Positions 1,709 to 26,042 are shown, numbered from the stretch's first letter. The stretch: 32,000 bases of DNA from Acaryochloris thomasi RCC1774 (GCF_003231495.1 NZ_PQWO01000004.1:270001-302000); one strand, 5' to 3'. Notes: generated from the sequence alone by a model not told the origin. Numbers and translations: made by a program.

Positions 1709-1812
1709 CGTTTCTTGACTCTCTGCGATTGTGTGTCATAGAAGGTTTCTATCGATTTTCGGAGATTGATCAGGCTGGTGTAGATGTATATGTAGGTGCC
1801 AAGGGGAAAAGC

Positions 1813-1846: not shown

Positions 1847-1899
1847 AACAATCTTATGTAAGGCAAGAGGCTTATTCCATAATGCGTTGAGAGTTTGGT

Positions 1900-3306: not shown

Positions 3307-3309
3307 TAA

Positions 3310-3579: not shown

Positions 3580-3588
3580 GTTGCACTC

Positions 3589-3785: not shown

Positions 3786-3964
3786 TAACGCAGTACCTTT
3801 GGTACCTCTAACCCATTCCTTTGAAATTGAACTGCATCATCATAGGTGAGTCAATGTGCGATCGCGATTTTCAGCAATTCTCATGCTGCCTCCCTAATCA
3901 AGGCTGTATATCTCCTATTACCAGTATTACCAGAATTCCCGTTTGCAGCTATCCTCCTTTGCCA

Positions 3965-3988
3965 ATTGTTGCGACATGTCGCAACAAT
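3965..3988. repeat. 24-bp perfect palindrome ATTGTTGCGACATGTCGCAACAAT just downstream of the hsdM stop; possible RNA hairpin/terminator or protein-binding site
   Basis: Read directly. It lies 4 nt from the hsdM stop codon (3993-3995). No U-tract follows on the minus strand, so it is not a canonical intrinsic terminator. Confidence 0.35.
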
Positions 3989-3992
3989 CTCA

Positions 3993-7078: not shown

Positions 7079-7696
7079 TTACGATCGCAGATCTTGCGGG
7101 ATATCTACGGTTGATAAACCTGCGATCGCAAGTAAATTCTGACTACGAATCAGTTCATTGAAGGTCAAGCTCGCCCGTTTTTCCAATTGGGCTGCGGCCT
7201 TAATCGCCTGCATGAGATGCTGGGCGGCCTCAGGTTCAGAATAGCCACGGCGTTGAGCCACCTTGAGGGCCAGATTATCAGCCTCTAGCTCTACCGGCAG
7301 ACCACGGGTGTTACGCCAGATTTGAGTGGTTGCGATCGCACCTAAGCCTGCAGCCACGACCACCCCCACCGCATCTCCCTGCACCAACTCCACCAGCGTT
7401 CCAACCAGACCAGCAACCGCTCCCCCCTGATAAAGATCTGGCTTCAGCCAGCGACTGCTTTTGAGCCAGCCCACTGTTCTCAGGAGGAGTAAATCGCACT
7501 GTGGCTGCGGGAGCTGACTCCACAGGTCAAAATTAATCGTGATCGGGCGCTTTTCTAAACGCAAAATAGAGCCGCCACAGTCAATCACCTGGGACTGCAA
7601 AGGAGCCTGAACAATTTTGGAATTCATGCGACCCGAGGCCGGCATCACATCCAAGAGACGACGAATTTCTGAGTTGGGATTCGTGGAGTCAGACAC
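7079..7696 (-). CDS. Conserved cyanobacterial protein, DUF3318-like
   Basis: 205-aa ORF. The N-terminal EIRRLLDVMPASGRM matches my recollection of the DUF3318 signature. It has a central Gly/Ala/Val hydrophobic segment. Confidence 0.5.
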   Translation of the reverse strand: MSDSTNPNSEIRRLLDVMPASGRMNSKIVQAPLQSQVIDCGGSILRLEKRPITINFDLWSQLPQPQCDLLLLRTVGWLKSSRWLKPDLYQGGAVAGLVGTLVELVQGDAVGVVVAAGLGAIATTQIWRNTRGLPVELEADNLALKVAQRRGYSEPEAAQHLMQAIKAAAQLEKRASLTFNELIRSQNLLAIAGLSTVDIPQDLRS

Positions 7697-7857
7697 GGTT
7701 TAAGCCATGCTCAAACATAGAAGGATAGTACTCTCCATATCGTCGCATCCCATTGCTCAATTTAGACTCAAAACCCCCAGCACTCAGACAAAATTGTTGC
7801 CAGCACTGAGGGTTTCTATCTATTTGATGGCTAGAGTTTTGAGCGAACCTGACAGCG

Positions 7858-8424
7858 TTAAACGCCACCTTGAACCACAAAGGCATCGCTAGAGAGGCGA
7901 ATTTTGTAGCCTGCATCAGCGGGAACCGTCAGCAGCTCGGCCTGGAAGGTGACAGTCTGCCCAGGGGCTAAAGTCGAAGGCTGAGGTGCTGCACTCCCGG
8001 TTTGCACGAGCTGACCGCTGGAGTCAATAATTTCAAAATTGACGCTAGCCACAGTCACAGCTTCTTTGTTGCCATTTGTCAGCGAACCCGCCGCGAGCGA
8101 GGAGCCATTAAGACGAATAATCGGATCAAGCCGCAGCTTGCTCACCCGCAAATTCTTTTCCAGCTTTTTCGCCAGTGCTTGAGGATCTTCACCCTGAGCA
8201 CCAGATGCGGCGGTTTGCGTCTCTGCGGGGGCTGATGGAGCGTTGAGATTCAGCAACTGAGTCCAATAGGATTGAAACTCAGACCACTCCAGTGGGGAGT
8301 CACCAATCACCACAATATCCCCAGGGGTCTGAGTCCTTGCAGCCTGTGGCGCTAAAGCCACCGTAGAGACCAGTACAGAACCCACCAGCAGTCGGCTCAG
8401 GATATTCGGGAATCCAGTTAACAT
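7858..8424 (-). CDS. Exported protein of unknown function (N-terminal signal peptide)
   Basis: 188-aa ORF. The hydrophobic N-terminus LLVGSVLVSTVALAPQAARTQ looks like a signal peptide. The C-terminal half looks beta-rich. No family recognised. Confidence 0.5.
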   Translation of the reverse strand: MLTGFPNILSRLLVGSVLVSTVALAPQAARTQTPGDIVVIGDSPLEWSEFQSYWTQLLNLNAPSAPAETQTAASGAQGEDPQALAKKLEKNLRVSKLRLDPIIRLNGSSLAAGSLTNGNKEAVTVASVNFEIIDSSGQLVQTGSAAPQPSTLAPGQTVTFQAELLTVPADAGYKIRLSSDAFVVQGGV

Positions 8425-8544
8425 AATGTCGTTACTCTCTTAACCAGCGTATTGAAGCCCAGAGGGCAATCATAAGAATTCGTTTAGCAGGCCAGCCGCT
8501 ATATTCTTTAGTATTCCCCAACGGTGGTCAAGACTGAACACTGA

Positions 8545-9063
8545 CTATCCGCCGTACTGCCAAGGTGTATCCTGCAGCAAGAGTGGCTCTCCCTCTCGGT
8601 AAAGCTCAGACGCGACAACTTCCCCTAGAAAGATGGAGTGATCTCCCTCCTCTAGACTGCCCCTCACTCGACATTCGATATAGCCCAAAGCAGACTGAAT
8701 AATCGGACAGCCAGTGGCTTCACCCAAGGTATAGTCCACATCGCCGAATTTGCTACCTTCACCTTTTTGGGGCTTGAAGAAAGTCTCTGCCATGTCTTTC
8801 TGGCTTTTATCTAAGAAGCTTACGGCAAAGACTTGACTCGCTTTAATCATGGCGTGGGAGCGTGAGTCTTGACGGACGCCGATCGCAATCATGGGTGGCT
8901 TAAAAGAAGCCTGGGTTGTCCAGCTTAGGGTAAAGCCATTGATCTCTTCACCCTCTTTGACGCCGCAGATATTGAGAGGGTGAGGAAGATGGCGCAGTAG
9001 GGTACGCTTGGCGTTATCGTCCAGCAATGATTTGATCTCCCTTACGGTACAGCTACTGTTCAC
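8545..9063 (-). CDS. Flavin reductase domain protein (FMN-binding split-barrel)
   Basis: 172-aa ORF. INGFTLSWTTQASFKPPMIAIGVRQDSRSHAMIKASQVFAVSFL and GDHSIFLGEVV are typical of the Flavin_Reduct family. Confidence 0.75.
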   Translation of the reverse strand: MNSSCTVREIKSLLDDNAKRTLLRHLPHPLNICGVKEGEEINGFTLSWTTQASFKPPMIAIGVRQDSRSHAMIKASQVFAVSFLDKSQKDMAETFFKPQKGEGSKFGDVDYTLGEATGCPIIQSALGYIECRVRGSLEEGDHSIFLGEVVASELYREGEPLLLQDTPWQYGG

Positions 9064-9265
9064 TGTAGCAACTATGGGTCAAGGGTTGAATCGCGCGGAT
9101 GGACCTCTGGGTCACAGTCATAATCATCTGTTTTACAGGAGTCATAACTTAACATAAAAACACCCGTAATTTAACGTACTTTCACTGAAACAAGCCCTAT
9201 AGTAATAGCTGGTCCAGTTCTGGTCAATCACAGAGTTGTTTAGCAAGTAAAGAACGGGGGACATT

Positions 9266-12166
9266 TTGGACAATCCAGGCATTCTTTCATTGGAATTAGG
9301 CGCAATTCGAGTCCGTGAAGGTGACGAAGAGGCCATCATTTCTGTTCTTCGCACAGAAGGCAGCGACGGCACAATATCAGTAGACTACTCCATCAACGAT
9401 GGAACAGCCAGAGATGGAAGTGACTATACAGGTAGTTCTGGAACCTTAACCTTTGGCCCCGGCGAAACAAAAATAGATGTCAGAGTTCCGATTCTGGCAG
9501 ACAATCAGCCAGAGGTTGATGAGACCTTTAATATTGCCATTGGTAGCCCCATCGGCGCTGTCCTGGGAGCTATCCGGTCTGCGGTTATTACGATTACAGA
9601 TGATGACACCACAGATGAAGATACTGTCGCCTTCGAGGATGCAGAATACAGTATTGGTGAAAACGCAGGGGAAGCAAGCATCGATATTGTCCGTACAGGC
9701 AATATCGATCGCACCGCTACGGTCAATTATGCATTGGGCGACGACTACGCGCGTGCTGGCCTAGACTTTGCCTCTGTTTCGGGCACTGTGACCTTCCAAC
9801 CAGGTGAAGCACGTCAAACATTTGCGGTCCCCATTCTAGAAGACGAGCTACAAGAGTTCGATGAGTCCCTTACTCTAACGCTGACTGATCCCGTTGGCAG
9901 CAATTTGGGCGTGCAGAGCAGTGCCCAATTGACGATTGTAGATAACGATGAGGCTCCCTTTACGTTCGAGCGCGAAGTCGTTGTTTCAGGTTTAGCCGAG
10001 GGAGAAAGAGTCGCGCGGTTTTCTGCACCACCCGGACCAACAGCCTTTGACTGGGCACCTGATGGGACGATGTTCATTGCCAATCTAGATGGCGTTGTCC
10101 AAATTTTCGACAATGGTGAACTCTTAGAGCAGCCTTTCATTGATATTTCTGAGCAGGTGAATACGGGTGGGCAACGGGGACTATTGGGGCTAGCTGTTCA
10201 TCCCGATTTTCCTGAAAGTCCCTACGTGTACCTAGCTTATTCCTACGATGCCCCTGGCGTGGAGCCGGACACGTCTAATACTCTACGCCCGACGCGGCTG
10301 GTTCGTGTGGAAGCGGACCCCGCCTCAGGTTATCGAGAGGTCTTGCCCGGTAGCGAAGTCATTCTGTTAGAAACGCCTCCCGTCAGTAACTTTCACGCAG
10401 CAGGGGCCATTAAGTTTGCAGAAGATGGCTCTCTCTTCTTTACCCATGGAGATGGAACCCAGGTTGGTAATACACCCACACCGGAGCAGGCAGAGCTACT
10501 GCAGAGCCTAGATAATCCCTTTGGTAAGCTCTTTCGCATTGACCCGCTGACGGGCGAGGGATATGCAGACAACCCGTTCTTCGATGGCGATACCACCAGT
10601 ACTCAGTCCAAGATTTATAACTACGGCCTGCGGAACCCTTGGCGCTATACGCTTCATCCAGAGACAGGTGTCCCCTTTATTGGTGATGTCGGCTGGACAA
10701 ACTGGGAAGAGATAAATACTGGGCGGGGGGAAAACTTTGGTTGGCCATTGTTTGAAGGCGGCAACGGCGTTAGCCGTAGGACCGAAGCCCTGGCTGATCT
10801 GCCTGAGTTCGAGACTCTCTTTCAAGGTGCATCAGATGTAACAGCCCCCCTCTTTGCACTCCGCCATCCCACCTCCCGCTCGATTACGCTCGGCGACTTT
10901 TACACAGGCGAAGCTTATCCTGATTTTTATGAGGGAGCACTTTTCTTTGCCGACAATACCGTGGGTGGGGTCAGTGCTCTACTTTTCGACGAGCAAGGGA
11001 ATATCGATTCAGCTATTCCTTTTGCGGATGAGGAGCTAGGAATCACTCAGATTTCGGTGGGACCAGACTCAAATTTATATTTTGCGAATGTTTTCTCTGG
11101 CGAGATTGGACGCTGGGTTCCCGCCTCAATAAACGAAAATGAAACGTTGATCGGGGGAAACAGTGGTGATGTCTTGAATGGTGGTGCTGGAGATGACGTT
11201 CTACGCGGTCAGGAAGGTAATGACACTTTAGCGGGTGAGGCTGGTGACGATACCCTCAAAGGAGGGGCCGGTGACGATAGCCTTACAGGTGGCGCAGGTG
11301 ACGATACCGTGATTGTTAATGACTTTAGTGGCGTTGACGTCTTTGACGGAGGATCGGGAAAAGATGTTATCCGGTTCTTACCCAGTGATGGCCGAAATAT
11401 AAATGTTCGTATTGCCGAAGGATTCGTCGGTGACAGGCGCGAGGGCGGTCAGTTCTTTGAAAACTTTGAGCGTGTCCTAACCGGCAGCGGCAACGACAGC
11501 TTGTTTGGCGATGCGAATAACAATGAGCTGTTTAGTGGTGCAGGCAATGATACCTTCGAAGGCGGTGCGGGAAATGACATCTTAAAAGGTGGGTCCGGTA
11601 ACGACGTCATTGACGGCGGGTCCGGTGACGATACCGTGATTGTTAATGACTTTAGTGGCGTTGACTTCTTTGATGGAGGAGAGGGGAACGATGCTATCCG
11701 GTTCTTACCCAGTGATGGCCGCAATATAAATGTTCGTATTGCCGAAGGATTCGTCGGTGACAGGCGCGAGGGCGTTCAGTTCTTTGAAAACTTTGAGAGT
11801 GTCTTGACTGGCAGTGGCGACGATAGCTTGTTCGGCAACGATGACGATAATCAACTCTACGGTGCGAATGGTCAAGACACGCTGCTGGGCGGCGGTGGTG
11901 ATGACTTGCTCGCGGGCGGACTAGGAGATGACTGGGTAACCGGGGGCAGCGGCTCAGATACCTTTATACTCGCGTCTGATGATGGCACTGATCAGATCAC
12001 TGATTTTGAACGTGGAGAGGATTTGATTGCCCTAGCAGGCGGCTTAAGTTTTGCAGAGCTAAGCTTCAGTGGCGATCAAATTTTATTGCAAGATCAAGCA
12101 CTTGCTGTTCTAGACGGTATTGCTACTACCAGTTTGGTGGAGACTGACTTCATCTCGGTTGCGTAG
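9266..12166 (+). CDS. Large secreted-type multidomain protein: 2x Calx-beta, a glucose/sorbosone-dehydrogenase-like beta-propeller, and C-terminal RTX calcium-binding repeats
   Basis: 966-aa ORF. Calx-beta signatures (DGTARDGSDYTGSSGTLTFGPGE; ARAGLDFASVSGTVTFQPGE). Propeller motifs (GLLGLAVHPDF, YNYGLRNPWRY, NFGWPLFEG). Many GGxGxD nonapeptides from about aa 630 onward. No signal peptide. There is no in-frame ATG in roughly the first 270 codons, so the start must be non-ATG (TTG 9266 per the track). Confidence 0.8.
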   Translation: MDNPGILSLELGAIRVREGDEEAIISVLRTEGSDGTISVDYSINDGTARDGSDYTGSSGTLTFGPGETKIDVRVPILADNQPEVDETFNIAIGSPIGAVLGAIRSAVITITDDDTTDEDTVAFEDAEYSIGENAGEASIDIVRTGNIDRTATVNYALGDDYARAGLDFASVSGTVTFQPGEARQTFAVPILEDELQEFDESLTLTLTDPVGSNLGVQSSAQLTIVDNDEAPFTFEREVVVSGLAEGERVARFSAPPGPTAFDWAPDGTMFIANLDGVVQIFDNGELLEQPFIDISEQVNTGGQRGLLGLAVHPDFPESPYVYLAYSYDAPGVEPDTSNTLRPTRLVRVEADPASGYREVLPGSEVILLETPPVSNFHAAGAIKFAEDGSLFFTHGDGTQVGNTPTPEQAELLQSLDNPFGKLFRIDPLTGEGYADNPFFDGDTTSTQSKIYNYGLRNPWRYTLHPETGVPFIGDVGWTNWEEINTGRGENFGWPLFEGGNGVSRRTEALADLPEFETLFQGASDVTAPLFALRHPTSRSITLGDFYTGEAYPDFYEGALFFADNTVGGVSALLFDEQGNIDSAIPFADEELGITQISVGPDSNLYFANVFSGEIGRWVPASINENETLIGGNSGDVLNGGAGDDVLRGQEGNDTLAGEAGDDTLKGGAGDDSLTGGAGDDTVIVNDFSGVDVFDGGSGKDVIRFLPSDGRNINVRIAEGFVGDRREGGQFFENFERVLTGSGNDSLFGDANNNELFSGAGNDTFEGGAGNDILKGGSGNDVIDGGSGDDTVIVNDFSGVDFFDGGEGNDAIRFLPSDGRNINVRIAEGFVGDRREGVQFFENFESVLTGSGDDSLFGNDDDNQLYGANGQDTLLGGGGDDLLAGGLGDDWVTGGSGSDTFILASDDGTDQITDFERGEDLIALAGGLSFAELSFSGDQILLQDQALAVLDGIATTSLVETDFISVA
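11297..11837 (+). repeat. Near-identical tandem duplication (period 327 bp = 109 aa) inside the RTX region
   Basis: GGTGACGATACCGTGATTGTTAATGACTTTAGTGGCGTTGAC occurs at 11297 and again at 11624. About 213 nt of each copy align with few mismatches, including an identical run AATATAAATGTTCGTATTGCCGAAGGATTCGTCGGTGACAGGCGCGAGGGCG. At protein level: DDTVIVNDFSGVD(V/F)FDGG...IRFLPSDGRNINVRIAEGFVGDRREG.QFFENFE. Confidence 0.85.
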
Positions 12167-12272
12167 CAGCTTGCCCCAATGTGAGGCGTAGAAAAGCTAA
12201 GGGACTTCATAAAACACTGGTTTGCCTTCTGATTCCGGTACGGCAAGTCTGGCAGAGCAAAACTGAGTGATT

Positions 12273-13064
12273 TTAAACTGTTTCTGTATAGACCTCTTGA
12301 TCTGGGGTGACGACTACGAGGCTGTTCTCAGCAACCGCAGTCCAGTGTTTGTTCTCAAAAGTTGGCTCAGACGCAATTAAGACACCGCTGGGTAGAGATA
12401 AGTCATCCTGAACCCAGTAAAGGGAAGGAGGGGGGTTGGGATAGGCATATCTTGAAGCGACTAGGGACTGACCATCACTCAAAACAATGTTCAAGCTGAC
12501 GCTAATGTTGGCAGCTGCGGCCCAGTTGGTAATGCGTTTCAGGGTCGCCGTCAGTGCAGACTGCAGCGGTAAGTCAGGGGTCTGCTCAAGTTCATGGCAG
12601 ACGAGGGCAAAGATATGCTCTGAATCGGTGGTGCCCTCGATGGTCTGATAGCAGCGATCGCTTAGATGACTCCGCAGCTTGCGATAGAGTGTTGAGCGAA
12701 ATTGATCAATAAACCCATTGTGAATGCCTAGCAGTTGCCCTTGCCGATAGGGCTGGCAGTTACTGAGCTGCACGCTTTGGCCTACGGTGGCGCTGCGGAC
12801 ATAGGCGAGCATACAGCCAGATTCTACATAGTGAGCAAGATTTGTAAGGTTTTGATCGCTCCAAATGGGCGTTGTATTACGATAGATACAGGGTGCAATG
12901 GGCTGTTCAGGATGGTACCAGCCAAGGCCAAAGCCATCTGCATTGAGCAACCCAGCGGTCATTTCTCGGGGTTGGTAGCTTTGCGCAATTAGTGAATGCT
13001 CGGGTTTCAGCAACAGTGTGTCTAAGCGAACAGAGGGACCGAGGTAGCCAAGCAAACGACACAT
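12273..13064 (-). CDS. Class II (Ntn, Cys2) glutamine amidotransferase, EgtC-like
   Basis: 263-aa ORF starting MCRLLGYLG (nucleophile Cys directly after Met), followed by NADGFGLGWY. This is typical of GATase_4/EgtC-like amidohydrolases. Confidence 0.7.
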   Translation of the reverse strand: MCRLLGYLGPSVRLDTLLLKPEHSLIAQSYQPREMTAGLLNADGFGLGWYHPEQPIAPCIYRNTTPIWSDQNLTNLAHYVESGCMLAYVRSATVGQSVQLSNCQPYRQGQLLGIHNGFIDQFRSTLYRKLRSHLSDRCYQTIEGTTDSEHIFALVCHELEQTPDLPLQSALTATLKRITNWAAAANISVSLNIVLSDGQSLVASRYAYPNPPPSLYWVQDDLSLPSGVLIASEPTFENKHWTAVAENSLVVVTPDQEVYTETV

Positions 13065-13743: not shown

Positions 13744-16700
13744 TCACGTAGTCGGCTGGGGAATGGTGAAGTAAAACGTACTGCCCTGCCCCAGCTGACT
13801 ATCGACCCAGATTTGTCCGCCATGCTGCTGAACAATACTGCGGCAAATCGATAGACCTAGGCCCGTGCCCTCATGATTGCGGGTATCAGAAGAATCAGCC
13901 TGCTGAAATCGCTCAAAGATCAGGTCAATCTTGTCCGCAGCAATCCCGCGCCCCCGATCCTGCACGCTAAAGCAGAGGACCTGCGGCTGTGTCGTTTCAG
14001 CGCTGAGCCATACGGTACTGCCACGAGTTGAGAATTTAATGGCGTTGCTCAGGAGATTGGTGAAGGTTTGCAAAATCCGATCTGGGTCGGCCCGAATCTG
14101 CGCGGAGATCGGTTGCACTATCAAGGTGACGCCCTCCTGTTCGGCCATCCCCTGCATCGTATTGGCGGCCTGCGTCATCAGAGCTTCAGCCCAGCAGGGC
14201 CGCAGCTTCATTTCCACGTTGCCCGATTCGATGCGCTCAACGTCTAATACATCGTTAATTAAGCGCACCAGCCGGTCGGTACTGTCTGCGGCGATCTTGA
14301 GCAGCCGCTGGTTTTTGTCTGCTTGGGTGCTGAGCATGCCGCTGGCAAGCATCCGTAGAGACCCGTGAATAGAAGTGAGGGGCGTCCGTAGTTCATGACT
14401 GACAATGGAGATGAATTCATCCTTCATCCGCTCCATGACTTTGCGATCGCTAATGTCTTTAAAAGTGATCACAGCGCCAATAATCTTGCCCTGCTCAAGA
14501 ATGGGAGTACTGAGATATTCCACCGGGAAGCAGAAACGGTCTCGGCGGCAGAAGATTGCCTCTGATAGCGGCTGCGGTGTCCCGGCCTGCAGTGAAGCAT
14601 AGATAGAGGCCAAAGCCTCTGGAACAAGCTCACGATGGTCGGGTTCGAGAACACTGGGGAAGAGAATTTCAAGGGTTTGATTCATTAAGTCATCGGCGGT
14701 GTACCCAAGATATTGTTCGGCAGCAGCATTGACGAAGGTGAATTGCCCCTGCAGATTGAGCCCGCAGAGTCCTTCGCCAATGGCGTTAAGAATTAGCTCG
14801 TTTTGATGACTCATGCGCTCCAGCGTTTCCTGGGCCTGTTTACGCTGTGAAATATCACGCAGAATGACGGTGTAAAGGGTTTCAGTTTCTAATTCCAGCT
14901 TTGAAATCGAAGCCTCAGCTGGAAATTCGGTGCCATCTTTACGGCGACCAAAGAGTTCTTGGCGCTCTGCAATCCGCGTCGACGGTCCCCCACTGGCAAC
15001 ACGCTGACGATGAATCATCTCCGCCTGATTGGGCAGAAGCAGATCTAAGGATTGCCCAATCACCTCTGAGGATTCGTAACCAAAAATTTGCTCAGCGCCC
15101 TGATTAAAAAGGGTAATGGCCTCAGAAGCATTGACGGAAATAATAGCGTCGTTGGCAATTTCTAAAATGCCTGAAAAGCGCTCTTGAGAAACCTTCAGGG
15201 CGCTCTCGGTGGCCTTGCGTTCAAACAGTTCTTGGTTGAGCTGTTGGTTGACGCTGATCAGTTCTGCCGTACGCTCGGTCACCTTGCTCTCCAAGTTTTT
15301 GCGCGCTTCTTGCAGCACAATTTCCACCTGTTCACGTTCAGCTAGTTCAATTTGTAATTTCTGATAAAGCTCCGATTGCTGCAGCGCGATGGCCAGCTGG
15401 GTTGCCAGTCGGGTGAGCAAATTGATTTCACTTTGCTGCCACTGTCGAGGGGCAGAGCAGTGGTGAGCAATCAACAACCCCCAAAGCCGATCGCCCTGCA
15501 GAATCGGTACGATCAGGCTAGCCTGCACCTGAAACTGCTCTAGGAATTCGATATAGCAAGGTGTCAACCCAGCACAGTGAACATCTTCAAAGGCCGTAAC
15601 GTGCCCCTGGCGAAAGGGTTCAATGTAGGCTTCAGCAAAGCAGGGATCATAAATCTTCATCTCAAGCACTGAGGTCCAGGTCGTCGCCCCTAAAGACTCA
15701 ACGAGTGCCTTGCCGCTCCAGTCTGGGTTGAACTTAAAAATCAGGACACGGTCGGTTGCCAGTACTCGCTGTACTTCCGTCACAGCCGTGCTCAAAATAT
15801 CCTTTAAGTCTAGAGACTGGCGAATGTGAGCGGCGATCTCTCCCACGAGTTGCTCCTGGGCCACCTGCTGCTGCAGCGCGGCTTCATTGTGCTGTTGTTC
15901 AGCATTATCCAGCAGTCGCTCTAACAGATGGGTGCGCTCATCATGTTTGAGTACCTCGGCGAGCGGCTCAATTTTAGAGAGCTGCCGCTGCAGTCTGGTG
16001 CGCTCTAAGCGATTGAGAATTCGCACGATCAGTTCAGGCCCCATAATCGGCTTACTGACGAAATCATCGGCTCCGACGCTATAGACCCGGTTGACGATTT
16101 CAGCTTCAGTGTGGGCCGTCAAGAAAATGATCGGTAGCTGCTCCCAGCGAGCGTCATCGCGAATTTTCTGGCAGAGATCAATGCCGTTCATCTTCGGCAT
16201 CTCAACATCTAGCACCAATAAATCAGGGGTGTGTTCGGCCAGCCTCTGCCAAACCTGACTCGGTTCGGTGAGGGTTGTCACCTGAAATCCCCAGGGTTGC
16301 AGGAGGGTCGTGACGGTCTCCGAAACAAGGGGATCGTCATCAACAACCATGATCTGAGCCTCTATAGAGCCTAGGGAAGAGGGCGGAACGGTAAGGCCTT
16401 CCCGCGGCCCGGCAGTGGACGGCTCCAAGATGGGGTAGGGGGGCTGAGGCGGGAAAGACCTGAGGGACGGCAAATCGGCACGGCTAATTTCAGACCGCAG
16501 CGCAATGACATTCTGCTGCAGCGCTAAGGCTTGATCCTCGGTCAGGATCGTCTCCTGGAGTAAATGCTCAATGCTGCGCGCGAACTGCGACCCTTGGGCA
16601 TAACCAAAAGTGCCGAGTCCTCCAGCTAAAGTATGGGCTTCTTGTCGCGCCTGTTGATGGAGTTCTGTCGCTAACGAACCTTGCGTGAGGGCGGTGGCAG

Positions 16701-17493
16701 CCTGCTCTAAGATACCGACCTGCTGGTTAATCCGAGGCTGGAATTTGACCCAAACATCGGTGAGGGCGGCCTGTGGCTGTGGTTCAGCTTCTGGCATCAC
16801 CTGTGGCTTGGCGGGTTCAGGAAGGGGCTTGAGGCGGTATCCAATCCCATAGACTGTTTCAATTAAGTCAGGGGGGGCACCCGCAGCCTTAAGCTTCTGC
16901 CGGAGCCCTTTAATGTGGGTGCGAACGGCTTCTTCTCCTGGCGTATCTTCGTAGGTCCACAGATGCTCTAAGACCATGCCACAGCTAAAGACGCGACGAT
17001 TATTGCGCATCAATAGCTCTAGGAGTGCATATTCTTTGGGGGTTAGCGATAGCAGAACATCAGCATAGGTGACTTCACAGGCTTTGGGATCGAGCCGAAT
17101 ATTTTCCCATTCAAGGATGGGGGCTTCAGTGCCTTGGCTCCGACGCAGTAGGGCTCGCACCCGCGCCGTTAACTCTTCTGGATCAAAGGGCTTAACAACA
17201 TAGTCGTCGGCTCCGGCATCTAGGCCCATGGCCTTGTCATGACCACTGTCTTTGCCTGTGAGCAATAAAATGGGAGTGGGGCAGCCTTGCGATCGCAACT
17301 GTCGACAGAGACTGACGCCATCTAGCCCTGGTAGCATCACGTCAGAAAGAATCAGATCGTACTCGAACGCCTCCACGAGATCTGCGACGGCTTGACCGTC
17401 TGCGACCTTCTCCACTGCATAATTCTGTTGGGTAAACAGGAGCTCAAGCGCTTTTGCATTCAGCTCATCATCTTCAACAATCAGAATCCTCAT
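13744..17493 (-). CDS. Soluble hybrid sensor kinase/response regulator: REC, OmpR-type winged helix, Hpt, REC, GAF, PAS, PAS, HisKA, HATPase_c
   Basis: 1249-aa ORF. REC1 (LILSDVMLPGLDG...VVKPF). wHTH (LTPKEYALLELLMRN...VYGIGYRLK). Hpt-like (EAHTLAGGLGTFGYAQGSQFARSIEHLL). REC2 (LLVLDVEMPKMNGIDL...FVSKPI). A GAF region, two PAS regions, H-box FISIVSHELRTPLTSI, and G-boxes (DRGRGI, GTGLGLSI). No hydrophobic TM segment seen. Confidence 0.9.
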   Translation of the reverse strand: MRILIVEDDELNAKALELLFTQQNYAVEKVADGQAVADLVEAFEYDLILSDVMLPGLDGVSLCRQLRSQGCPTPILLLTGKDSGHDKAMGLDAGADDYVVKPFDPEELTARVRALLRRSQGTEAPILEWENIRLDPKACEVTYADVLLSLTPKEYALLELLMRNNRRVFSCGMVLEHLWTYEDTPGEEAVRTHIKGLRQKLKAAGAPPDLIETVYGIGYRLKPLPEPAKPQVMPEAEPQPQAALTDVWVKFQPRINQQVGILEQAATALTQGSLATELHQQARQEAHTLAGGLGTFGYAQGSQFARSIEHLLQETILTEDQALALQQNVIALRSEISRADLPSLRSFPPQPPYPILEPSTAGPREGLTVPPSSLGSIEAQIMVVDDDPLVSETVTTLLQPWGFQVTTLTEPSQVWQRLAEHTPDLLVLDVEMPKMNGIDLCQKIRDDARWEQLPIIFLTAHTEAEIVNRVYSVGADDFVSKPIMGPELIVRILNRLERTRLQRQLSKIEPLAEVLKHDERTHLLERLLDNAEQQHNEAALQQQVAQEQLVGEIAAHIRQSLDLKDILSTAVTEVQRVLATDRVLIFKFNPDWSGKALVESLGATTWTSVLEMKIYDPCFAEAYIEPFRQGHVTAFEDVHCAGLTPCYIEFLEQFQVQASLIVPILQGDRLWGLLIAHHCSAPRQWQQSEINLLTRLATQLAIALQQSELYQKLQIELAEREQVEIVLQEARKNLESKVTERTAELISVNQQLNQELFERKATESALKVSQERFSGILEIANDAIISVNASEAITLFNQGAEQIFGYESSEVIGQSLDLLLPNQAEMIHRQRVASGGPSTRIAERQELFGRRKDGTEFPAEASISKLELETETLYTVILRDISQRKQAQETLERMSHQNELILNAIGEGLCGLNLQGQFTFVNAAAEQYLGYTADDLMNQTLEILFPSVLEPDHRELVPEALASIYASLQAGTPQPLSEAIFCRRDRFCFPVEYLSTPILEQGKIIGAVITFKDISDRKVMERMKDEFISIVSHELRTPLTSIHGSLRMLASGMLSTQADKNQRLLKIAADSTDRLVRLINDVLDVERIESGNVEMKLRPCWAEALMTQAANTMQGMAEQEGVTLIVQPISAQIRADPDRILQTFTNLLSNAIKFSTRGSTVWLSAETTQPQVLCFSVQDRGRGIAADKIDLIFERFQQADSSDTRNHEGTGLGLSICRSIVQQHGGQIWVDSQLGQGSTFYFTIPQPTT

Positions 17494-17790: not shown

Positions 17791-18315
17791 ATGGATAGTA
17801 GGGACCTAGCAGATGCCTCCATAAGCGTGAGGCCAAGCAAAAGACAGGATTACTCAGCCGTTGCGTCGATCTATAACCAGGCGATCGCAACCGGCGGTAT
17901 GACCTTCCATGAGCAGGAACTATCGGCAGGTTATATACAACGATGGGTGGAAGGATTTTGCGATCGCGAGTCTCTCTTAGTCCTTGTATACAACGATCAG
18001 ATTTTGGGCTGGGGTGTTGTCAAACGCTATAGCGATCGCACAGGCTATCGATTTTGCTGTGAAACCTCAATTTATCTCGATAGTGCAGAAACAGGGAAAG
18101 GCTACGGCAGTATTTTGCAAAAGGCTTTGCTGCAGAAGGCGGTAGAGCTGAATTATCACCACGTTGTTCTCAAAATTGTGGCCTCCAATCAAGGCAGCAT
18201 CCGCTTCCATGAACAATTTGGGTTTGAAACAGTTGGCATTCAAGAAGAGATCGGCTTCACACATGGTCGTTGGCATGACGTAGCAATCATGCAGCTCATT
18301 TTGCCTGCCCATTAG
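17791..18315 (+). CDS. GNAT N-acetyltransferase, phosphinothricin/MSO acetyltransferase (PAT/YncA)-like
   Basis: 174-aa ORF. ASIYNQAIATGGMTF..., acetyl-CoA motif ETGKGYGSILQKALLQKA, and the C-terminal FGFETVGIQEEIGFTHGRWHDVAIMQL typical of the PAT subgroup. Confidence 0.8.
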   Translation: MDSRDLADASISVRPSKRQDYSAVASIYNQAIATGGMTFHEQELSAGYIQRWVEGFCDRESLLVLVYNDQILGWGVVKRYSDRTGYRFCCETSIYLDSAETGKGYGSILQKALLQKAVELNYHHVVLKIVASNQGSIRFHEQFGFETVGIQEEIGFTHGRWHDVAIMQLILPAH

Positions 18316-18578
18316 CCGACTGTGCACACAGGTCTTAGAAAGTAACATCACTTACCTGCGAATAAATTTCAGGCTTATTTGCCCCACCAATTTCAATGGG
18401 TTAGGACGTGCTTTCATCATCCCAACGGAGGCTCTTTATTAGAATGAGCTGAGCGCGAGTTTTCCTACGGGCTTATCACGGTAGCATGTGAGGATATAGC
18501 CGTTAGCCTCTAAAAACGACACTATCTATAAAGAGGTGAGGGCTATCCCGAGAGACACTTGGTATCAGACTGCTTGGA

Positions 18579-19556
18579 TTATTGGGTTGCGTTGGCAAAG
18601 AACTTACCCTTTTTCATAAAGACAAAGCCAAATAAAGGCAAATCTCGAACAATTTGCCGCCAAACGAAGCGCTTTGGAGCAAAAGGAGAGTTCACAAAGA
18701 AAAGCGTTAACCAAAGACAATTACTCCAAAATGAGATTGACATCGTCAGTTGAGATGCAATATGAAAGCAGATCAACCCCAATCCCCACAATCGATGTAA
18801 CGATGGCCGAAAGGATGCCCAGAGAGAGAAAAATTGCAGATAAATTGTACCGATCATCAACGGCCAAGCAATAAAATAGTGCTCGATTAGCCAAGTACCG
18901 AGATAGCTAGTCGCATCAGTCTGCACCAAACGGTTGGCAATCTGAAGCGGAAGAGCCTCAGGCATTAAAGTATGCACTTGGTTCCGTATTGCCTGGATCG
19001 GTATCTGAATAATTTTAAAGAAGCCGGACATAGTATAAGTCAACATAATCATTGACTGACAACCTGAAAAGACGATCAAAGTGGCTGCTCGTATCGCCTT
19101 CTCTGGCTTTTCCAAAAACCAGCCAGGAGGAAGGAATATCAGGATAAAACTGAGTAGAAGCTGTAAATGGCCTCCGTGATTAATTTTCCCAAATGAATTA
19201 TCAAATGCCATGAACTCTAGCAATGCTAGAAAGATAAGAATCCGAGCCGTTCGCCAACGAGTAGCGGTCAATGCCAAAAAGCCACCTATGATGTAAAACC
19301 AAAAGATAAGTGTGATTCCAGAAGAAATATCAACGTAGTTCAGCCAGTAAACAGGCCAGAGAGGAACCAGATCTATTTTGTTTAAGTAGTCTGGCCAAAA
19401 ACTAAGAGACTGAAGAGAGTAAAAAGCAACTAATGCATAAAAACAGCGAACAATGAATTGAACTGACAAAAACTTATGAGTCAAAGTAAAAGAAAGACTT
19501 TGATTTGAACGTCCCCCACTGAAGAACTTCACCAAGAGCTTTGCAGAACAATTCAT
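18579..19556 (-). CDS. Polytopic membrane protein, possibly HTTM/SdpB-like
   Basis: 325-aa ORF with at least 7 hydrophobic segments. NHGGHLQLLLSFILIFLPPGW resembles the (D/N)GG(D/E)Q...LLLLP segment I recall for HTTM/SdpB proteins. Low-GC codon usage. The start lies 2 nt after the stop of the upstream gene. Confidence 0.55.
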   Translation of the reverse strand: MNCSAKLLVKFFSGGRSNQSLSFTLTHKFLSVQFIVRCFYALVAFYSLQSLSFWPDYLNKIDLVPLWPVYWLNYVDISSGITLIFWFYIIGGFLALTATRWRTARILIFLALLEFMAFDNSFGKINHGGHLQLLLSFILIFLPPGWFLEKPEKAIRAATLIVFSGCQSMIMLTYTMSGFFKIIQIPIQAIRNQVHTLMPEALPLQIANRLVQTDATSYLGTWLIEHYFIAWPLMIGTIYLQFFSLWASFRPSLHRLWGLGLICFHIASQLTMSISFWSNCLWLTLFFVNSPFAPKRFVWRQIVRDLPLFGFVFMKKGKFFANATQ

Positions 19557-19558
19557 TT

Positions 19559-20038
19559 CTATAAGCCACTCACAAAATAATCTAGATGCCTAACTTTTGA
19601 TTCGCCAGACTTATATTTATCTACTGGGTTATAGGTTTCAGATATAAGCTCGTACTTAACTTCACCCTTCAAGTAATTCTTCTCAAAGAGATTTTGAAAT
19701 CGTTCAAAGCCAGCACTGTCGTCTTTTAGATAAGATTTCCCCATTTTCTGAATTACGACTACTGCATTGATATCTCTGCTGGGGGCAATAGAGTCGGGAG
19801 CTTTGTTGAAAGTAACAGGAGGATGAATTCCTTTGCCATTATGTTCATAGACAATCACATCAAACTTCCTTTGGCTAGGCTGAGGAATTGTTGAAAAAAG
19901 AGACCAGCTAAAAATCGGGAATATCTCAGTAGCCCCTCTTTCCCGACCTGACTTCCAGGCGACTAAGCCCACCAAAAAATAAAAAGCAATACAAAAAGTT
20001 ATTCCGGTTTGCAAATGTCTTATGTGATTTTTCGCCAT
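19559..20038 (-). CDS. Membrane-anchored protein (one N-terminal TM segment plus a soluble domain), possibly SdpA-like partner
   Basis: 159-aa ORF. TM segment ITFCIAFYFLVGLVAWK followed by a roughly 120-aa hydrophilic domain. It is tightly coupled to the 325-aa gene. The functional call rests on size, topology and gene order only. Confidence 0.5.
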   Translation of the reverse strand: MAKNHIRHLQTGITFCIAFYFLVGLVAWKSGRERGATEIFPIFSWSLFSTIPQPSQRKFDVIVYEHNGKGIHPPVTFNKAPDSIAPSRDINAVVVIQKMGKSYLKDDSAGFERFQNLFEKNYLKGEVKYELISETYNPVDKYKSGESKVRHLDYFVSGL

Positions 20039-20762
20039 TTTTTATGCATTTTACATTTATTTTTACAGATGCATTGGACCTCTCGTGAGTATCTCCTAAT
20101 TTTGCAGCATGAATTCAAGCTCATACAGATAGTTGTCAGAACTATCTTGAATTTATAGTGGATGATTTGTCTTTTTCGTTGCCTCCACAATGGCTATTGA
20201 GATACGGATTGTTTTAGTGCAAACTCCCTATGATTTTAAAGCTCTCTCAAAGAAAATCTACAAAGAGGTTGGAAATTAAAAAATAAATAATCAAGCCTTT
20301 CCTTCCCCTCTTCAGAAAGAGGAAATCTATTGTGGATTATTTGAGAAGCTGAGTTGAGTTCTGTCGGATAGGCAACTGATAGCACCTATAAATCTCCTCT
20401 GACACCTGTGCCTTACTCATAAAACCGTAAATCAATTTCCAGCCTATATTTTCAATGCATGGGATTAAAAAAATACCCTACATATCTCACTAATAATAGC
20501 TTCTGGGAGTAGGTTCCTCTTTTCCATAAACCATAGACCGTTGTGAGTGTTACATCATTTAGAACATGTTTGGGAAATAGATGATGTGCGCTAACCCTCT
20601 TTTTCGGTTGCACCAGCTCTCAACGAAGAACTATCTTTTAAGAGACAAAAATCCTTAAAGCCTTTTGTACAGAGAGTTTTAAAAGCTTGTGCATAATGTA
20701 TCGCCCAGTGTGGAGCTAGGGGATGAAAGGTGAGTCTGTAATATTGGGATTGAGGCTCTAAA

Positions 20763-25650: not shown

Positions 25651-26042
25651 GGGGCTGTAACGGTTTCGACGTCTTAGTGAACGTAGCTTCATGATTCAGG
25701 CCGAGAGTGAGTTATCTCTCGTAAATCAATGGCTCAAACATCGTACATGCGAACAACATCGTACCTTTCGCTCGCCAGCGTACAGCAGTAGCTGCCGCCT
25801 AGAAAAAACCAACTCTTTGGTTCGAGCATTCATAGATTGACTCCGTTAATTTCTATGGATAACCCCCAACGGATGCGCGATCTGAGGGTCTCTGGTCCCG
25901 ACGTAAGCAAAGAACTTTACTAGAGCATCCCTCGCCTGGGATAAGAGGCGATTCCCGCTTCGAGGGTTAGAGAAGCTAAGCCTGTGAATGAATGGAGAGC
26001 TAATAATTAGGGCGGACACGGGTTCGACTCCCGTCAGCTCCA
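25651..26042 (+). ncRNA. ssrA: tmRNA (SsrA), standard one-piece form
   Basis: The 5' GGGGCTGTAACGGTTTCGACG pairs with the 3' acceptor ...CAGCTCCA. T-arm GGACACGGGTTCGACTCCCGTC lies at the 3' end. The tag ORF resumes at GCG 25749 and encodes ANNIVPFARQRTAVAAA, with stop TAG at 25800-25802. CCA is not encoded (GCTCCA is followed by TTTTT). Confidence 0.92.

What the first reader, a model, noticed from the sequence alone, without database searches (positions are those of the whole stretch)
18350..20762. Low-GC, HIP1-free island with an SdpA/SdpB-like (HTTM) two-gene operon and no visible cargo
Roughly 18.35-20.76 kb is clearly more AT-rich than its flanks (by eye about 35-42% GC versus over 50%; not computed). 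It contains no GCGATCGC, and none occurs between 18039 and 22430. This block holds two minus-strand genes separated by 2 nt. One is a 159-aa protein with one N-terminal TM helix. The other is a 325-aa polytopic protein whose NHGGHLQLLLSFILIFLPPGW segment resembles the (D/N)GG(D/E)Q...LLLP motif I recall for HTTM/SdpB proteins. As I recall, B. subtilis SdpA and SdpB are 158 and 323 aa and sit in the same order (sdpA-sdpB-sdpC), where they mature and export the SdpC peptide toxin. No SdpC-like ORF and no SdpI/SdpR-like immunity pair follows here. Either a short unannotated peptide is the cargo, or the pair has a different substrate. A candidate is the 22-codon ORF MMKARPNPLKLVGQISLKFIRR on the minus strand, about 18420-18352. 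A cyanobacterial SdpAB-like module with a missing or novel cargo would be worth characterising.
Basis: partly seen in the sequence, partly recalled or inferred. Interest (0 to 1): 0.7.

Follow-up and report, generated by a model that had tools for sequence, protein, structure and literature searches.

The report
Divergent vitamin-K-carboxylase-like membrane enzyme pair
This low-GC block in Acaryochloris thomasi carries a horizontally acquired two-gene operon for a very divergent relative of the vitamin K-dependent carboxylase (HTTM) membrane enzymes plus an always-present small partner; it belongs to a large unstudied family, and I found no evidence that it is an SdpABC-type toxin system.

Summary
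Block 18316-20762 has 39.8% GC against 50.9% elsewhere, and it carries two intact minus-strand genes (159 aa and 325 aa) 2 nt apart. The HIP1 gap is real but no more than chance would give.

No Pfam or NCBIfam model (HTTM, SdpA, SdpB, DUF5819) hits either protein or any of 90 relatives. The 325-aa protein is nevertheless a remote HTTM homolog:
- Foldseek finds only GGCX and giant-virus HTTM proteins.
- hhalign against a verified HTTM profile gives 94% probability, E = 1e-7, about 9 SD above permuted controls.
- Invariant K181 and H265 and near-invariant H127 align with GGCX K218, H287 and H160.
- UniProt already names it "HTTM domain-containing".

The family has about 1,500 representative clusters. 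The 159-aa partner sits directly upstream in all 41 genome loci and is fused to the large protein in one case. Some large proteins carry DCC1-like fusions. This mirrors the published DUF5819–HTTM(–DCC1) module.

No cargo gene, immunity gene or small ORF is conserved, and the 22-codon candidate is noise. Cyanobacterial copies form one clade, with low-GC cyanobacteria as the likely donors.

Most likely this is a two-subunit GGCX-like membrane enzyme whose substrate is not encoded nearby. It is a new variant of a known kind, of moderate interest.

The parts
18316..20762 (.). Low-GC block (39.8% GC) holding the two-gene operon and its flanking intergenic DNA; probable horizontally acquired segment
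   Evidence: lowest-GC 2.4-kb stretch in the window, with GC3 0.36-0.43 against 0.50-0.58 in neighbours. No flanking direct repeats, tRNA or mobility gene, so the exact insertion boundaries are not defined.
19559..20038 (-). Gene for the 159-aa small subunit (RefSeq WP_110985717.1). It is a single-pass membrane protein with an extracytoplasmic alpha/beta domain and is the obligate partner of the HTTM-like protein
   Evidence: ORF. A homolog lies directly upstream of the large gene in all 41 genome loci, usually with a 4-nt overlap. It is naturally fused to the large protein in P0148. AF2 model pLDDT 83. No Pfam or NCBIfam family.
19955..20014 (-). Small subunit residues 9-28, the N-terminal transmembrane helix (LQTGITFCIAFYFLVGLVAW)
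   Evidence: The family consensus has Arg-Arg before the helix, which suggests N-in/C-out topology (inference).
19883..19927 (-). Small subunit residues 38-52, the family signature motif E-x-F-P-x-x-S-W-x-L-F-x-x-x-P (EIFPIFSWSLFSTIP). Proposed contact segment with the catalytic subunit
   Evidence: P41, W45, F48 and P52 are invariant in 36/36 sequences; E38 is present in 31/36 and L47 in 34/36. It is the only low-confidence stretch of the monomer model. It aligns marginally with the GGCX 'YSWDMM' segment.
19562..19876 (-). Small subunit residues 55-159, a globular beta-beta-alpha-alpha-beta-alpha-beta domain
   Evidence: pLDDT above 90. No structural match in the PDB.
18579..19556 (-). Gene for the 325-aa polytopic membrane protein (PZD73817.1 / WP_110985716.1; UniProt A0A2W1K0S4), a remote HTTM/VKGC-superfamily homolog and the proposed catalytic subunit
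   Evidence: ORF. AF2 pLDDT 93.9. Foldseek top hits are GGCX only in the PDB and giant-virus HTTM proteins only in BFVD. hhalign probability 94% with clean controls. UniProt name 'HTTM domain-containing protein'.
18666..19451 (-). Residues 36-297 of the large protein, the core that aligns with GGCX residues 67-319 (HTTM domain)
   Evidence: hhalign over 240 columns, E = 1.1e-7; coordinates verified.
19014..19037 (-). Residues 174-181 (YTMSGFFK), matching the Y-x3-G-x2-K motif of GGCX Y211/G215/K218. K181 is the predicted catalytic base
   Evidence: K181 is present in 54/54, Y174 in 53/54 and G178 in 52/54 sequences. Alignment to K218.
19176..19181 (-). Residues N126-H127, aligned with GGCX N159-H160, which hydrogen-bond the substrate Glu carboxylate in GGCX
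   Evidence: H127 is present in 51/54 and N126 in 24/54 sequences. GGCX residue roles from PMC12647623.
18762..18764 (-). Residue H265, invariant, aligned with GGCX H287
   Evidence: 54/54.
20039..20762 (.). 724-bp AT-rich (36.9% GC) region between the operon and the divergent M28 peptidase gene. Presumed promoter/5' region; content otherwise unexplained
   Evidence: No Rfam hit, no minus-strand consensus promoter found inside this region, no conserved ORF or gene remnant.
18316..18578 (.). Downstream intergenic region, convergent with the GNAT gene.
   Evidence: tblastn of this and every other small ORF against 41 loci gave only E>0.2 noise. The closest Acaryochloris relative has only 62 bp downstream of the large gene.

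Best explanation
The block is a horizontally acquired two-gene operon, probably from a low-GC cyanobacterium. [quoted passage not shown]

The 325-aa protein is the catalytic subunit. It has the GGCX membrane-domain fold and keeps the equivalents of GGCX's catalytic base K218 (K181) and of H160 (H127), Y211, G215, R276 and H287 (H265).

The 159-aa protein is an obligate partner. It has one transmembrane helix, a highly conserved juxta-membrane motif (E-x-FP-x-x-SW-x-LF) and an extracytoplasmic alpha/beta domain. I infer that it packs against the catalytic subunit. It would then play the part that the post-HTTM helix and luminal domain play in GGCX, and that DUF5819 is predicted to play in canonical bacterial HTTM pairs.

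By analogy with GGCX, the complex would use a membrane quinol (phylloquinol or plastoquinol in a cyanobacterium) and O2 to generate a strong base on the outer face of the membrane. It would use that base to modify a substrate by carboxylation or a related proton-abstraction chemistry. That substrate is not encoded next to the operon.

Shown: the composition anomaly, strict pairing of the two genes, remote homology and fold of the large protein, conservation of the GGCX-equivalent residues, and the fusions.
Inferred: the physical complex, the topology, quinol dependence, and the nature of the reaction and substrate.
For: - Fold: the AF2 model of the large protein (pLDDT 93.9) matches only GGCX in the PDB (9 entries, probability 0.98-1.00, TMq 0.44-0.50; all other targets TMq<=0.22). 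In BFVD it matches only the Yasminevirus carboxylase-like epoxidase-desaturase (probability 1.00, TMq 0.50) and a Harvfovirus HTTM protein (probability 0.92).
- Profile-profile: A1 against a 6-sequence HTTM profile gives probability 94.2%, E = 1.1e-7, score 63.3 over 240 columns. The profile comprises validated human GGCX plus 5 plasmid proteins; the two of these I scanned hit PF05090 at 1e-73 and 2e-83. Controls: reversed 19.8; 40 block-permuted 23.7 +/- 4.3, maximum 31.9.
- Residues: K181=K218, H127=H160, Y174=Y211, G178=G215, R250=R276, H265=H287, S290-P291=S312-P313. K181 and H265 are in 54/54 sequences and the others in at least 49/54. N159/H160 bind the substrate carboxylate in GGCX (PMC12647623).
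- UniProt auto-names the protein 'HTTM domain-containing protein'.
- Pairing: a small-family homolog lies immediately upstream in 41/41 genome loci across six or more phyla, mostly with a 4-nt overlap, and each tandem paralog has its own partner. The natural fusion P0148 has an extra TM linker.
- C-terminal DCC1-like fusions occur in at least 8 members, the same architecture as the published HTTM-DCC1 partner of DUF5819 (bioRxiv 10.64898/2026.08.19.745780).
- The small family's best alignment falls on GGCX 359-444 (helix + YSWDMM + beta-hairpin). The score of 21.0 exceeds all 60 permuted controls (18.0 +/- 0.7, maximum 19.7).
- HGT: GC and GC3; the pair is 8-11 GC points below its flanks only in mid-GC cyanobacteria; the closest relatives sit on 37%-GC, HIP1-rich contigs; the cyanobacterial copies form one clade.
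Against: - No curated model (Pfam HTTM PF05090, VKGC_lumenal_dom PF22777, DUF5819, SdpA; NCBIfam SdpA/SdpB) hits either family at E<=1.
- The family profile does not hit GGCX in PDB sequences, and Foldseek E-values are weak (0.02-0.3).
- GGCX D263 and N290 align to non-conserved positions (T237, S268), so the chemistry may differ.
- The small protein has no PDB structural match, including to GGCX luminal domains. Its hhalign probability against the post-HTTM region is only 3%.
- The family occurs, even in 2-3 tandem pairs, in Patescibacteria and Saccharibacteria. Those groups generally lack quinone biosynthesis (general knowledge), which argues against an obligate quinol cofactor.
- No substrate candidate was identified. 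No complex prediction could be run. No insertion scars define the island.
Confidence: 0.6

Rival explanations
1. SdpAB-type maturation/export machine. The pair would process and release a secreted peptide toxin whose gene is unlinked, unrecognisably small, or novel.
For: Gene order and sizes (159 and 325 aa) match B. subtilis SdpA and SdpB as I recall them (158 and 323 aa). SdpB is an HTTM-family protein (general knowledge), and the large protein here is an HTTM remote homolog. yitPOM shows that SdpAB-like pairs can serve cargos with different sequences (PMC6818787).
Against: - No hit to NCBIfam SdpA/SdpB or Pfam SdpA in any of 90 family members at E<=1.
- Both characterised systems have a Sec-signal cargo gene of about 200 aa immediately downstream and an immunity gene nearby. 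Here the downstream neighbour is a convergent GNAT gene, and the upstream neighbours are M28 peptidase and chorismate synthase.
- Across the 41 genome loci no third gene of at least 60 aa is conserved. The window's small ORFs match nothing in those loci, and the small genes called in four further metagenome loci of close relatives match nothing elsewhere.
- The 22-codon ORF is not conserved, and the closest Acaryochloris relative has no room for it.
Confidence: 0.12
2. An HTTM-fold membrane protein pair with a quinone-independent role, for example modifying or transferring a lipid or envelope component, or acting as a thiol-disulfide relay. The conserved Lys and His residues would serve a different chemistry from vitamin K epoxidation.
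For: - The pair is present, with tandem amplification, in Patescibacteria and Saccharibacteria, which usually lack quinones (general knowledge).
- Family members are fused to an MGDG-synthase/GT28-like glycosyltransferase (P0127) and to an alpha/beta-hydrolase (P0176).
- Glycosyltransferase genes flank the pair in L049.
- DCC1-like thiol-disulfide fusions occur.
- GGCX D263 and N290 are not conserved.
Against: The best-conserved residues are exactly those that align with GGCX's catalytic base and substrate-binding His. The fusion partners are single cases. No positive evidence points to any specific alternative chemistry.
Confidence: 0.22
3. Inert or decaying foreign DNA. The low-GC block would be a recent insertion whose genes no longer function in A. 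thomasi.
For: Non-native composition. There is a long AT-rich upstream region without a recognisable promoter. One relative (L043) has a split copy.
Against: Both ORFs are full length (96-100% coverage against relatives). They retain every invariant family residue and the tight 2-nt gene junction.
Confidence: 0.04

Closest known systems
[quoted passage not shown]
   Same: The membrane-domain fold is the same (Foldseek TMq 0.44-0.50, probability about 1). Profile-profile homology covers GGCX 67-319. The equivalents of K218, H160, Y211, G215, R276 and H287 are conserved.
   Different: Identity is only 14-16%, and the protein is invisible to Pfam HTTM. It has no fused luminal domain; a separate 159-aa single-pass protein is encoded upstream instead. 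D263 and N290 are not conserved. No propeptide or Gla-type substrate is known, and the activity is untested.
Bacterial DUF5819 + HTTM(-DCC1-like) two-gene module (bioRxiv 10.64898/2026.08.19.745780), and the fused carboxylase MloH cited in that preprint (Law et al. 2018)
   Same: An adjacent small protein (N-terminal TM helix plus a domain of about 120-160 aa) is paired with an HTTM-type polytopic protein. C-terminal DCC1-like fusions occur in some members. A small+large fusion exists (P0148), as in MloH. The conserved Lys is present.
   Different: No member of the small family hits DUF5819 at E<=1, and the large family does not hit HTTM. Most members, including this one, lack DCC1.
B. subtilis SdpA-SdpB (and the paralogs YitP-YitO)
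   Same: The small gene comes before the large gene, the sizes are nearly identical, and the large partner is of HTTM type.
   Different: There is no match to the SdpA/SdpB family models. There is no downstream SdpC/YitM-like secreted cargo and no SdpI/YitQ-type immunity gene, either here or in 41 related loci.
Giant-virus gamma-carboxylase-like epoxidases (VKE/VKED; bioRxiv 10.64898/2026.03.26.714578)
   Same: They are HTTM-only proteins that keep the catalytic Lys but lack the GGCX carboxylation-specific region, and no linked substrate was found. Yasminevirus VKED is the top structural match in BFVD.
   Different: The viral proteins are fused or adjacent to a desaturase and to VKOR. Here the constant partner is the small single-pass protein, and no VKOR or desaturase lies nearby.

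Membership tests
HTTM domain / VKGC superfamily | Match to the curated Pfam HTTM model (PF05090) above threshold | tested here: not met
   No hit at E<=1 for the window protein or any of 54 relatives. The family profile does not hit GGCX in PDB sequences at E<=10. UniProt nevertheless names A0A2W1K0S4 'HTTM domain-containing protein', presumably from another signature.
HTTM domain / VKGC superfamily | Same fold as the GGCX membrane domain | tested here: met
   In the PDB the only credible Foldseek hits are 9 GGCX entries (probability 0.98-1.0, TMq 0.44-0.50). In BFVD only two giant-virus HTTM proteins are credible.
HTTM domain / VKGC superfamily | Statistically supported profile-profile homology to bona fide HTTM proteins | tested here: met
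   hhalign probability 94.2%, E = 1.1e-7, score 63.3, against 19.8 for the reversed template and 23.7 +/- 4.3 for permuted templates. The HTTM profile has only 6 sequences.
HTTM domain / VKGC superfamily | Catalytic lysine (GGCX K218) and neighbouring active-site residues conserved | tested here: met
   K181 aligns with K218 and is invariant in 54/54. H127=H160 (51/54), Y174=Y211, G178=G215, H265=H287 (54/54). D263 and N290 are not conserved. This rests on sequence alignment, not on a structural superposition.
HTTM domain / VKGC superfamily | Quinol-dependent epoxidase/carboxylase activity | not testable with these tools
   Needs biochemistry.
SdpB family (NCBIfam/TIGRFAM SdpB model) | Match to the family model | tested here: not met
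   No NCBIfam hit other than noise at E<=1 for the window protein and 54 relatives.
SdpABC-type toxin system | Secreted cargo gene (SdpC/YitM-like) downstream, with an immunity/regulator pair (SdpI/SdpR or YitQ) nearby | tested here: not met
   The flanking genes are GNAT, M28 peptidase, chorismate synthase and a hybrid kinase. No third conserved gene or small ORF exists in 41 + 4 loci. System definition from PMC6818787.
SdpA family (NCBIfam SdpA model / Pfam SdpA) | Match to the family model | tested here: not met
   No hit at E<=1 for the 159-aa protein or 35 relatives in Pfam or NCBIfam.
SdpA family / DUF5819-type HTTM partners | Small protein of about 160 aa encoded directly upstream of, and co-inherited with, the HTTM-type protein | tested here: met
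   41/41 loci, mostly with a 4-nt overlap. Natural fusion P0148.
DUF5819 (Pfam) | Match to the DUF5819 model; predicted complex with the HTTM partner in which the TM helix and domain mimic GGCX | tested here: not met
   No Pfam hit at E<=1 in 36 members. The complex prediction half of this feature could not be tested because no multimer tool was available.
VKGC_lumenal_dom (PF22777) | Homology of the small protein to the post-HTTM helix and luminal domain of GGCX-type proteins | tested here: inconclusive
   No Pfam hit and no Foldseek hit to GGCX. The best hhalign alignment does fall on GGCX 359-444 and beats 60/60 permuted controls, but probability is only 3% and E = 0.015.
Genomic island (horizontally acquired segment) | Atypical composition and patchy phylogenetic distribution | tested here: met
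   GC 0.398 against 0.509; GC3 0.36-0.43 against 0.50-0.58. The pair sits in different contexts in two Acaryochloris genomes. The family is scattered over six or more phyla.
Genomic island (horizontally acquired segment) | Insertion signatures (flanking direct repeats, adjacent tRNA/tmRNA, integrase or transposase) | tested here: not met
   No flanking repeats. The only tRNA-like gene is a tmRNA about 5 kb away. No mobility gene lies among the flanking ORFs.

The most novel reading that the evidence does not exclude
The pair would represent a large, unannotated family (about 1,500 clusters at 50% identity, in at least six phyla) of 'split' GGCX-like enzymes. The small subunit would be the detached homolog of the GGCX segment that holds the glutamate-binding region (GGCX 393-404) and the luminal domain. 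The complex would carry out a so-far unknown quinol/O2-driven modification, such as carboxylation of an envelope or secreted substrate. That would be a bacterial and cyanobacterial counterpart of vitamin K-dependent carboxylation, possibly using phylloquinone in a phototroph.
Probability: 0.2. Interest if true: 0.75.

Novelty: new variant of a known kind. Interest (0 to 1): 0.42.

Why it matters
Outside animals, only a few HTTM proteins have any known role: SdpB/YitO in toxin maturation, MloH in malonomycin carboxylation, and a Leptospira epoxidase.

This locus exposes a large, widely scattered sub-family that the Pfam and NCBIfam libraries searched here miss entirely. It still keeps the GGCX catalytic lysine and histidines, and it always travels with a dedicated single-pass partner. 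That gives a compact two-gene system of about 1.5 kb for asking what bacterial vitamin K-carboxylase-like enzymes do and how a detached partner substitutes for the GGCX luminal domain.

For A. thomasi itself, this is an accessory gene pair passed between cyanobacteria. It is not evidence of a cannibalism-type toxin.

It also corrects a deposited gene model. GenBank PZD74015.1 is truncated to 99 aa and lacks the transmembrane helix and the family's signature motif.

Tried and rejected
- Direct Pfam and NCBIfam scans of both proteins and of 54 + 36 relatives found no HTTM, SdpA, SdpB, DUF5819 or VKGC_lumenal_dom hit.
- The family profile against PDB sequences gave no GGCX hit.
- hhalign of A1 against a single GGCX sequence was not significant (probability 0.2%), although it already paired K181 with K218. 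It became significant only with a 6-sequence HTTM profile.
- The search for related loci with the 54-sequence alignment failed for lack of a conserved stretch, so I repeated it with 15 close sequences.
- The word-indexed homolog search for the small family returned only 2-6 proteins. I therefore rebuilt the family from ORFs in the fetched loci.
- Foldseek of the small-protein model against the PDB gave only noise.
- tblastn of the large protein against plasmids found no match. Only five HTTM proteins were obtainable from plasmids and no SdpB- or DUF5819-type sequence, so I could not measure relative closeness to SdpB versus GGCX.
- Small-ORF cargo: the 22-codon ORF, all other small ORFs around the pair, and the 48-aa and 56-aa genes called near close relatives have no conserved counterparts.
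- Rfam, promoter and terminator scans of the block were uninformative.
- Flanking repeats and tRNA as insertion marks: none found.
- The AT-rich upstream region as a decayed neighbour gene (DCC-fusion, glycosyltransferases and others): no trace.
- L052's 425-aa DCC1-fusion membrane domain against HTTM or A1: not significant.
- A DCC1-like gene near the pair: found in only 1 locus and not in the window.
- HIP1 absence as evidence of foreign origin: rejected as not significant.
Full report
**Observation**

The window comes from Acaryochloris thomasi RCC1774: all four proteins I looked up are exact matches to that genome. The block 18316-20762 has 39.8% GC against 50.9% for the rest of the window. 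It is the lowest-GC 2.4-kb stretch in the 32 kb (the next lowest is 45.0%). GC3 is 0.43 for the large gene and 0.36 for the small gene, against 0.50-0.58 in neighbouring genes.

Two intact minus-strand ORFs, 19559-20038 (159 aa) and 18579-19556 (325 aa), are separated by 2 nt. HIP1 (GCGATCGC) is strongly over-represented in the window (17 sites against 0.65 expected), and none lies between 18039 and 22430. A longer HIP1-free gap exists at 7332-12654, however, and a gap of this size is expected about 80% of the time. No flanking repeats, tRNA or mobility genes mark an insertion.

**Curated family tests fail**

Neither protein hits any Pfam or NCBIfam model at E<=1. The same is true for 54 relatives of the large protein and 36 relatives of the small one, each scanned individually. 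None hits HTTM (PF05090), VKGC_lumenal_dom, DUF5819, or the SdpA and SdpB models. A profile of the large family also fails to hit GGCX among PDB sequences.

**The large protein is nevertheless a remote HTTM homolog**

- **Structure.** An AlphaFold2 model built on 54 sequences is very confident (pLDDT 93.9, pTM 0.90). Foldseek against the PDB returns nine GGCX (vitamin K-dependent gamma-carboxylase) entries as the only credible matches, with probability 0.98-1.00, TMq 0.44-0.50 and 285-322 aligned columns. Every other target has TMq at or below 0.22. Against viral predicted structures the only credible matches are the Yasminevirus carboxylase-like epoxidase-desaturase (probability 1.00, TMq 0.50) and a Harvfovirus HTTM protein.
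- **Profile comparison.** I validated a recalled human GGCX sequence against PDB chain 13ib_A (757/758 identical) and retrieved five bacterial HTTM proteins from plasmids. I scanned two of them, and both carry PF05090 plus PF22777. hhalign of the family against this six-sequence profile gave probability 94.2%, E = 1.1e-7 and score 63.3 over 240 columns (window residues 36-297 against GGCX 67-319). Controls were clean: 19.8 for the reversed template and 23.7 +/- 4.3 (maximum 31.9) for 40 block-permuted templates.
- **Residues.** The alignment puts the family's invariant and near-invariant residues on identical GGCX residues: K181=K218 (the catalytic base), H127=H160, Y174=Y211, G178=G215, R250=R276, H265=H287 and S290-P291=S312-P313. 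In GGCX, N159, H160 and Y395 hydrogen-bond the substrate glutamate carboxylate (PMC12647623). GGCX D263 and N290 are not conserved here.
- **Public annotation.** UniProt already auto-names this protein (A0A2W1K0S4) 'HTTM domain-containing protein', while NCBI calls it hypothetical.

**Size and spread of the family**

The word-indexed search found 117 relatives, all unannotated. The exhaustive profile search found 1,510 representative clusters at E<=1e-3 and 540 at E<=1e-30. A scan of one genome per species recovered 41 loci in Cyanobacteria, Acidobacteriota (Thermoanaerobaculia), Verrucomicrobiota, Myxococcota, Chloroflexota, Patescibacteria/Saccharibacteria and an alphaproteobacterium.

**The small protein is an obligate partner**

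In all 41 loci a homolog of the 159-aa protein lies immediately upstream of the large gene, most often overlapping it by 4 nt. In loci with two or three tandem copies, each large gene has its own small partner.

The small family shares an N-terminal transmembrane helix, an almost invariant juxta-membrane motif (E-x-F-P-x-x-S-W-x-L-F-x-x-x-P, with P41, W45, F48 and P52 invariant) and a domain of about 105 residues. Its AF2 model is confident for the domain (pLDDT above 90, beta-beta-alpha-alpha-beta-alpha-beta) but not for the motif, as would be expected for a segment that needs a partner. The model has no structural match in the PDB.

One family member, P0148, is a natural fusion: small domain, then an extra transmembrane helix, then the large domain. 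That topology fits a small domain outside the membrane and a large-subunit N-terminus inside.

At least eight large-family members carry a C-terminal DCC1-like thiol-disulfide oxidoreductase domain, and the closest relative has a DCC1-fusion membrane protein next door. DCC1 is absent from the window and from the other loci.

This architecture is the one just described for canonical bacterial HTTM proteins. There, a DUF5819 protein (N-terminal helix plus domain) sits next to an HTTM-DCC1 protein, and the pair is predicted to form a complex mimicking whole GGCX. The fused carboxylase MloH is the single-chain version (bioRxiv 10.64898/2026.08.19.745780).

The small family's best hhalign alignment falls on GGCX 359-444. 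That stretch comprises the post-HTTM helix, the 'YSWDMM' segment within the 393-404 region (which I recall as implicated in glutamate binding) and the first beta-hairpin. The score of 21.0 exceeds all 60 permuted controls (18.0 +/- 0.7, maximum 19.7), but the probability is only 3%. I treat this as a lead, not a result.

**No cargo**

Both characterised SdpAB-type operons, sdpABC and yitPOM, have a Sec-signal cargo gene directly downstream and an immunity gene nearby (PMC6818787). Here the neighbours are a convergent GNAT acetyltransferase, a divergent M28 peptidase, chorismate synthase and a hybrid sensor kinase, all with native composition.

Clustering every ORF of at least 60 aa from the 41 loci shows that only the two families are shared. 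Everything else is shadow ORFs or within-clade synteny. The 22-codon candidate and every other small ORF around the pair give only noise-level tblastn matches (E>0.2) in the 41 loci. The closest Acaryochloris relative has just 62 bp downstream of the large gene. The 48-aa and 56-aa genes called near close relatives are unique to those contigs. No Rfam family is present.

**Origin**

The pair sits in different genomic contexts in A. thomasi and in Acaryochloris sp. IP29b_bin.148. In the three mid-GC cyanobacterial hosts the pair is 8-11 GC points below its flanks, whereas in other phyla it tracks the host (mean -1.7 points). The closest relatives (57-62% identity) lie on contigs of about 37% GC that are rich in HIP1, and one has a CP12/DUF3177 context, so they are cyanobacterial. 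A neighbour-joining tree places all cyanobacterial copies in one clade, sister to the Polyangiaceae and Acidobacteriota copies. The simplest reading is sporadic transfer among cyanobacteria, with a low-GC lineage as donor to A. thomasi.

**Mechanism**

Most likely the pair is a two-subunit GGCX-like membrane enzyme. The large subunit would supply the quinol site and the catalytic base. The small subunit would supply a helix, a conserved pocket-lining motif and an extracytoplasmic domain for substrate handling. The substrate is encoded elsewhere or is not a gene product.

I put high confidence (about 0.85) on the structural and evolutionary assignment and on the functional coupling of the two genes. 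I put much lower confidence (about 0.4) on quinol-dependent chemistry. D263 and N290 are not conserved, and the family is present and even amplified in Patescibacteria and Saccharibacteria, which usually lack quinones (general knowledge). Single fusions to a GT28-like glycosyltransferase and to an alpha/beta-hydrolase hint at lipid or envelope substrates.

The SdpAB toxin-maturation reading keeps a small probability (about 0.12).

**Verdict**

This is a new, very divergent variant of a known kind of module, the HTTM plus small-partner pair. It belongs to a large family that the Pfam and NCBIfam libraries searched here miss. Interest is moderate.

Noticed in passing
window 19559-20038 (-): The GenBank gene model for the small protein (PZD74015.1, C1752_01762) is only 99 aa and starts at an internal codon ('MIVYEHNG...'). 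It lacks the transmembrane helix and the invariant family motif. RefSeq WP_110985717.1 has the full 159 aa, which the 41-locus comparison supports.
   Followed up: yes
window 25651-26042 (+): A tmRNA gene with tag peptide ANNIVPFARQRTAVAAA lies about 5 kb from the low-GC block. It is not adjacent, so it is not an obvious integration site.
   Followed up: no
window 20039-20762: A 724-bp, 36.9% GC intergenic region lies between the operon and the divergent M28 peptidase gene. It is unusually long. It has no minus-strand consensus promoter, no Rfam hit, no conserved ORF, and no trace of the genes that neighbour the pair in relatives.
   Followed up: partly
L021 (Patescibacteria) 2756-5351; L039 (Saccharibacteria) 1612-5882: There are two and three tandem copies of the small+large pair in candidate-phyla-radiation genomes. 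Those lineages generally lack quinone biosynthesis, which is awkward for a vitamin K-type mechanism.
   Followed up: partly
L052 1799-3076 (+), just upstream of the pair in the closest relative (P0001): A 425-aa protein has a polytopic N-terminal domain, a DCC1-like domain (CGFC motif, Pfam E = 1.6e-7) and a C-terminal hydrophobic tail. Its membrane domain shows no significant similarity to HTTM or to the large family.
   Followed up: partly
P0127 (718 aa), P0176 (653 aa), P0208 (714 aa): Large-family members carry long C-terminal extensions: an MGDG-synthase/GT28-like glycosyltransferase (P0127), an alpha/beta-hydrolase (P0176), and a Cys-rich domain with no Pfam match (P0208).
   Followed up: partly
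L043 5046-5875: In a Verrucomicrobiae MAG the large gene is split into two ORFs of 137 aa and 124 aa. This is a probable pseudogene or an assembly frameshift.
   Followed up: no
window 7332-12654: This is the longest HIP1-free stretch in the window (5.3 kb), longer than the one over the finding, yet its GC is normal (0.46-0.54).
   Followed up: no
window 17791-18315 (+): The GNAT acetyltransferase scores best against the arsinothricin and phosphinothricin N-acetyltransferase models (ArsN1 family A, E = 7e-33, below the curated cutoff). It is annotated as L-methionine sulfoximine acetyltransferase. Three HIP1 sites cluster inside its first 250 bp (17881, 17960, 18032).
   Followed up: no
window 13744-17493 (-): A 1,249-aa ORF whose sequence looks like a hybrid signalling protein (response-regulator receiver and winged-helix domains, a second receiver, then PAS- and histidine-kinase-like regions) ends about 300 bp from the GNAT gene. 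I judged the domains by eye from the translation and did not scan them.
   Followed up: no
L045 2473-2862 (-) and 2950-4341 (+) (Paracoccus albus plasmid p1): A canonical HTTM + VKGC_lumenal_dom protein is divergently adjacent to a stand-alone DUF393/DCC gene. This shows that the HTTM-DCC association also occurs as separate genes.
   Followed up: no
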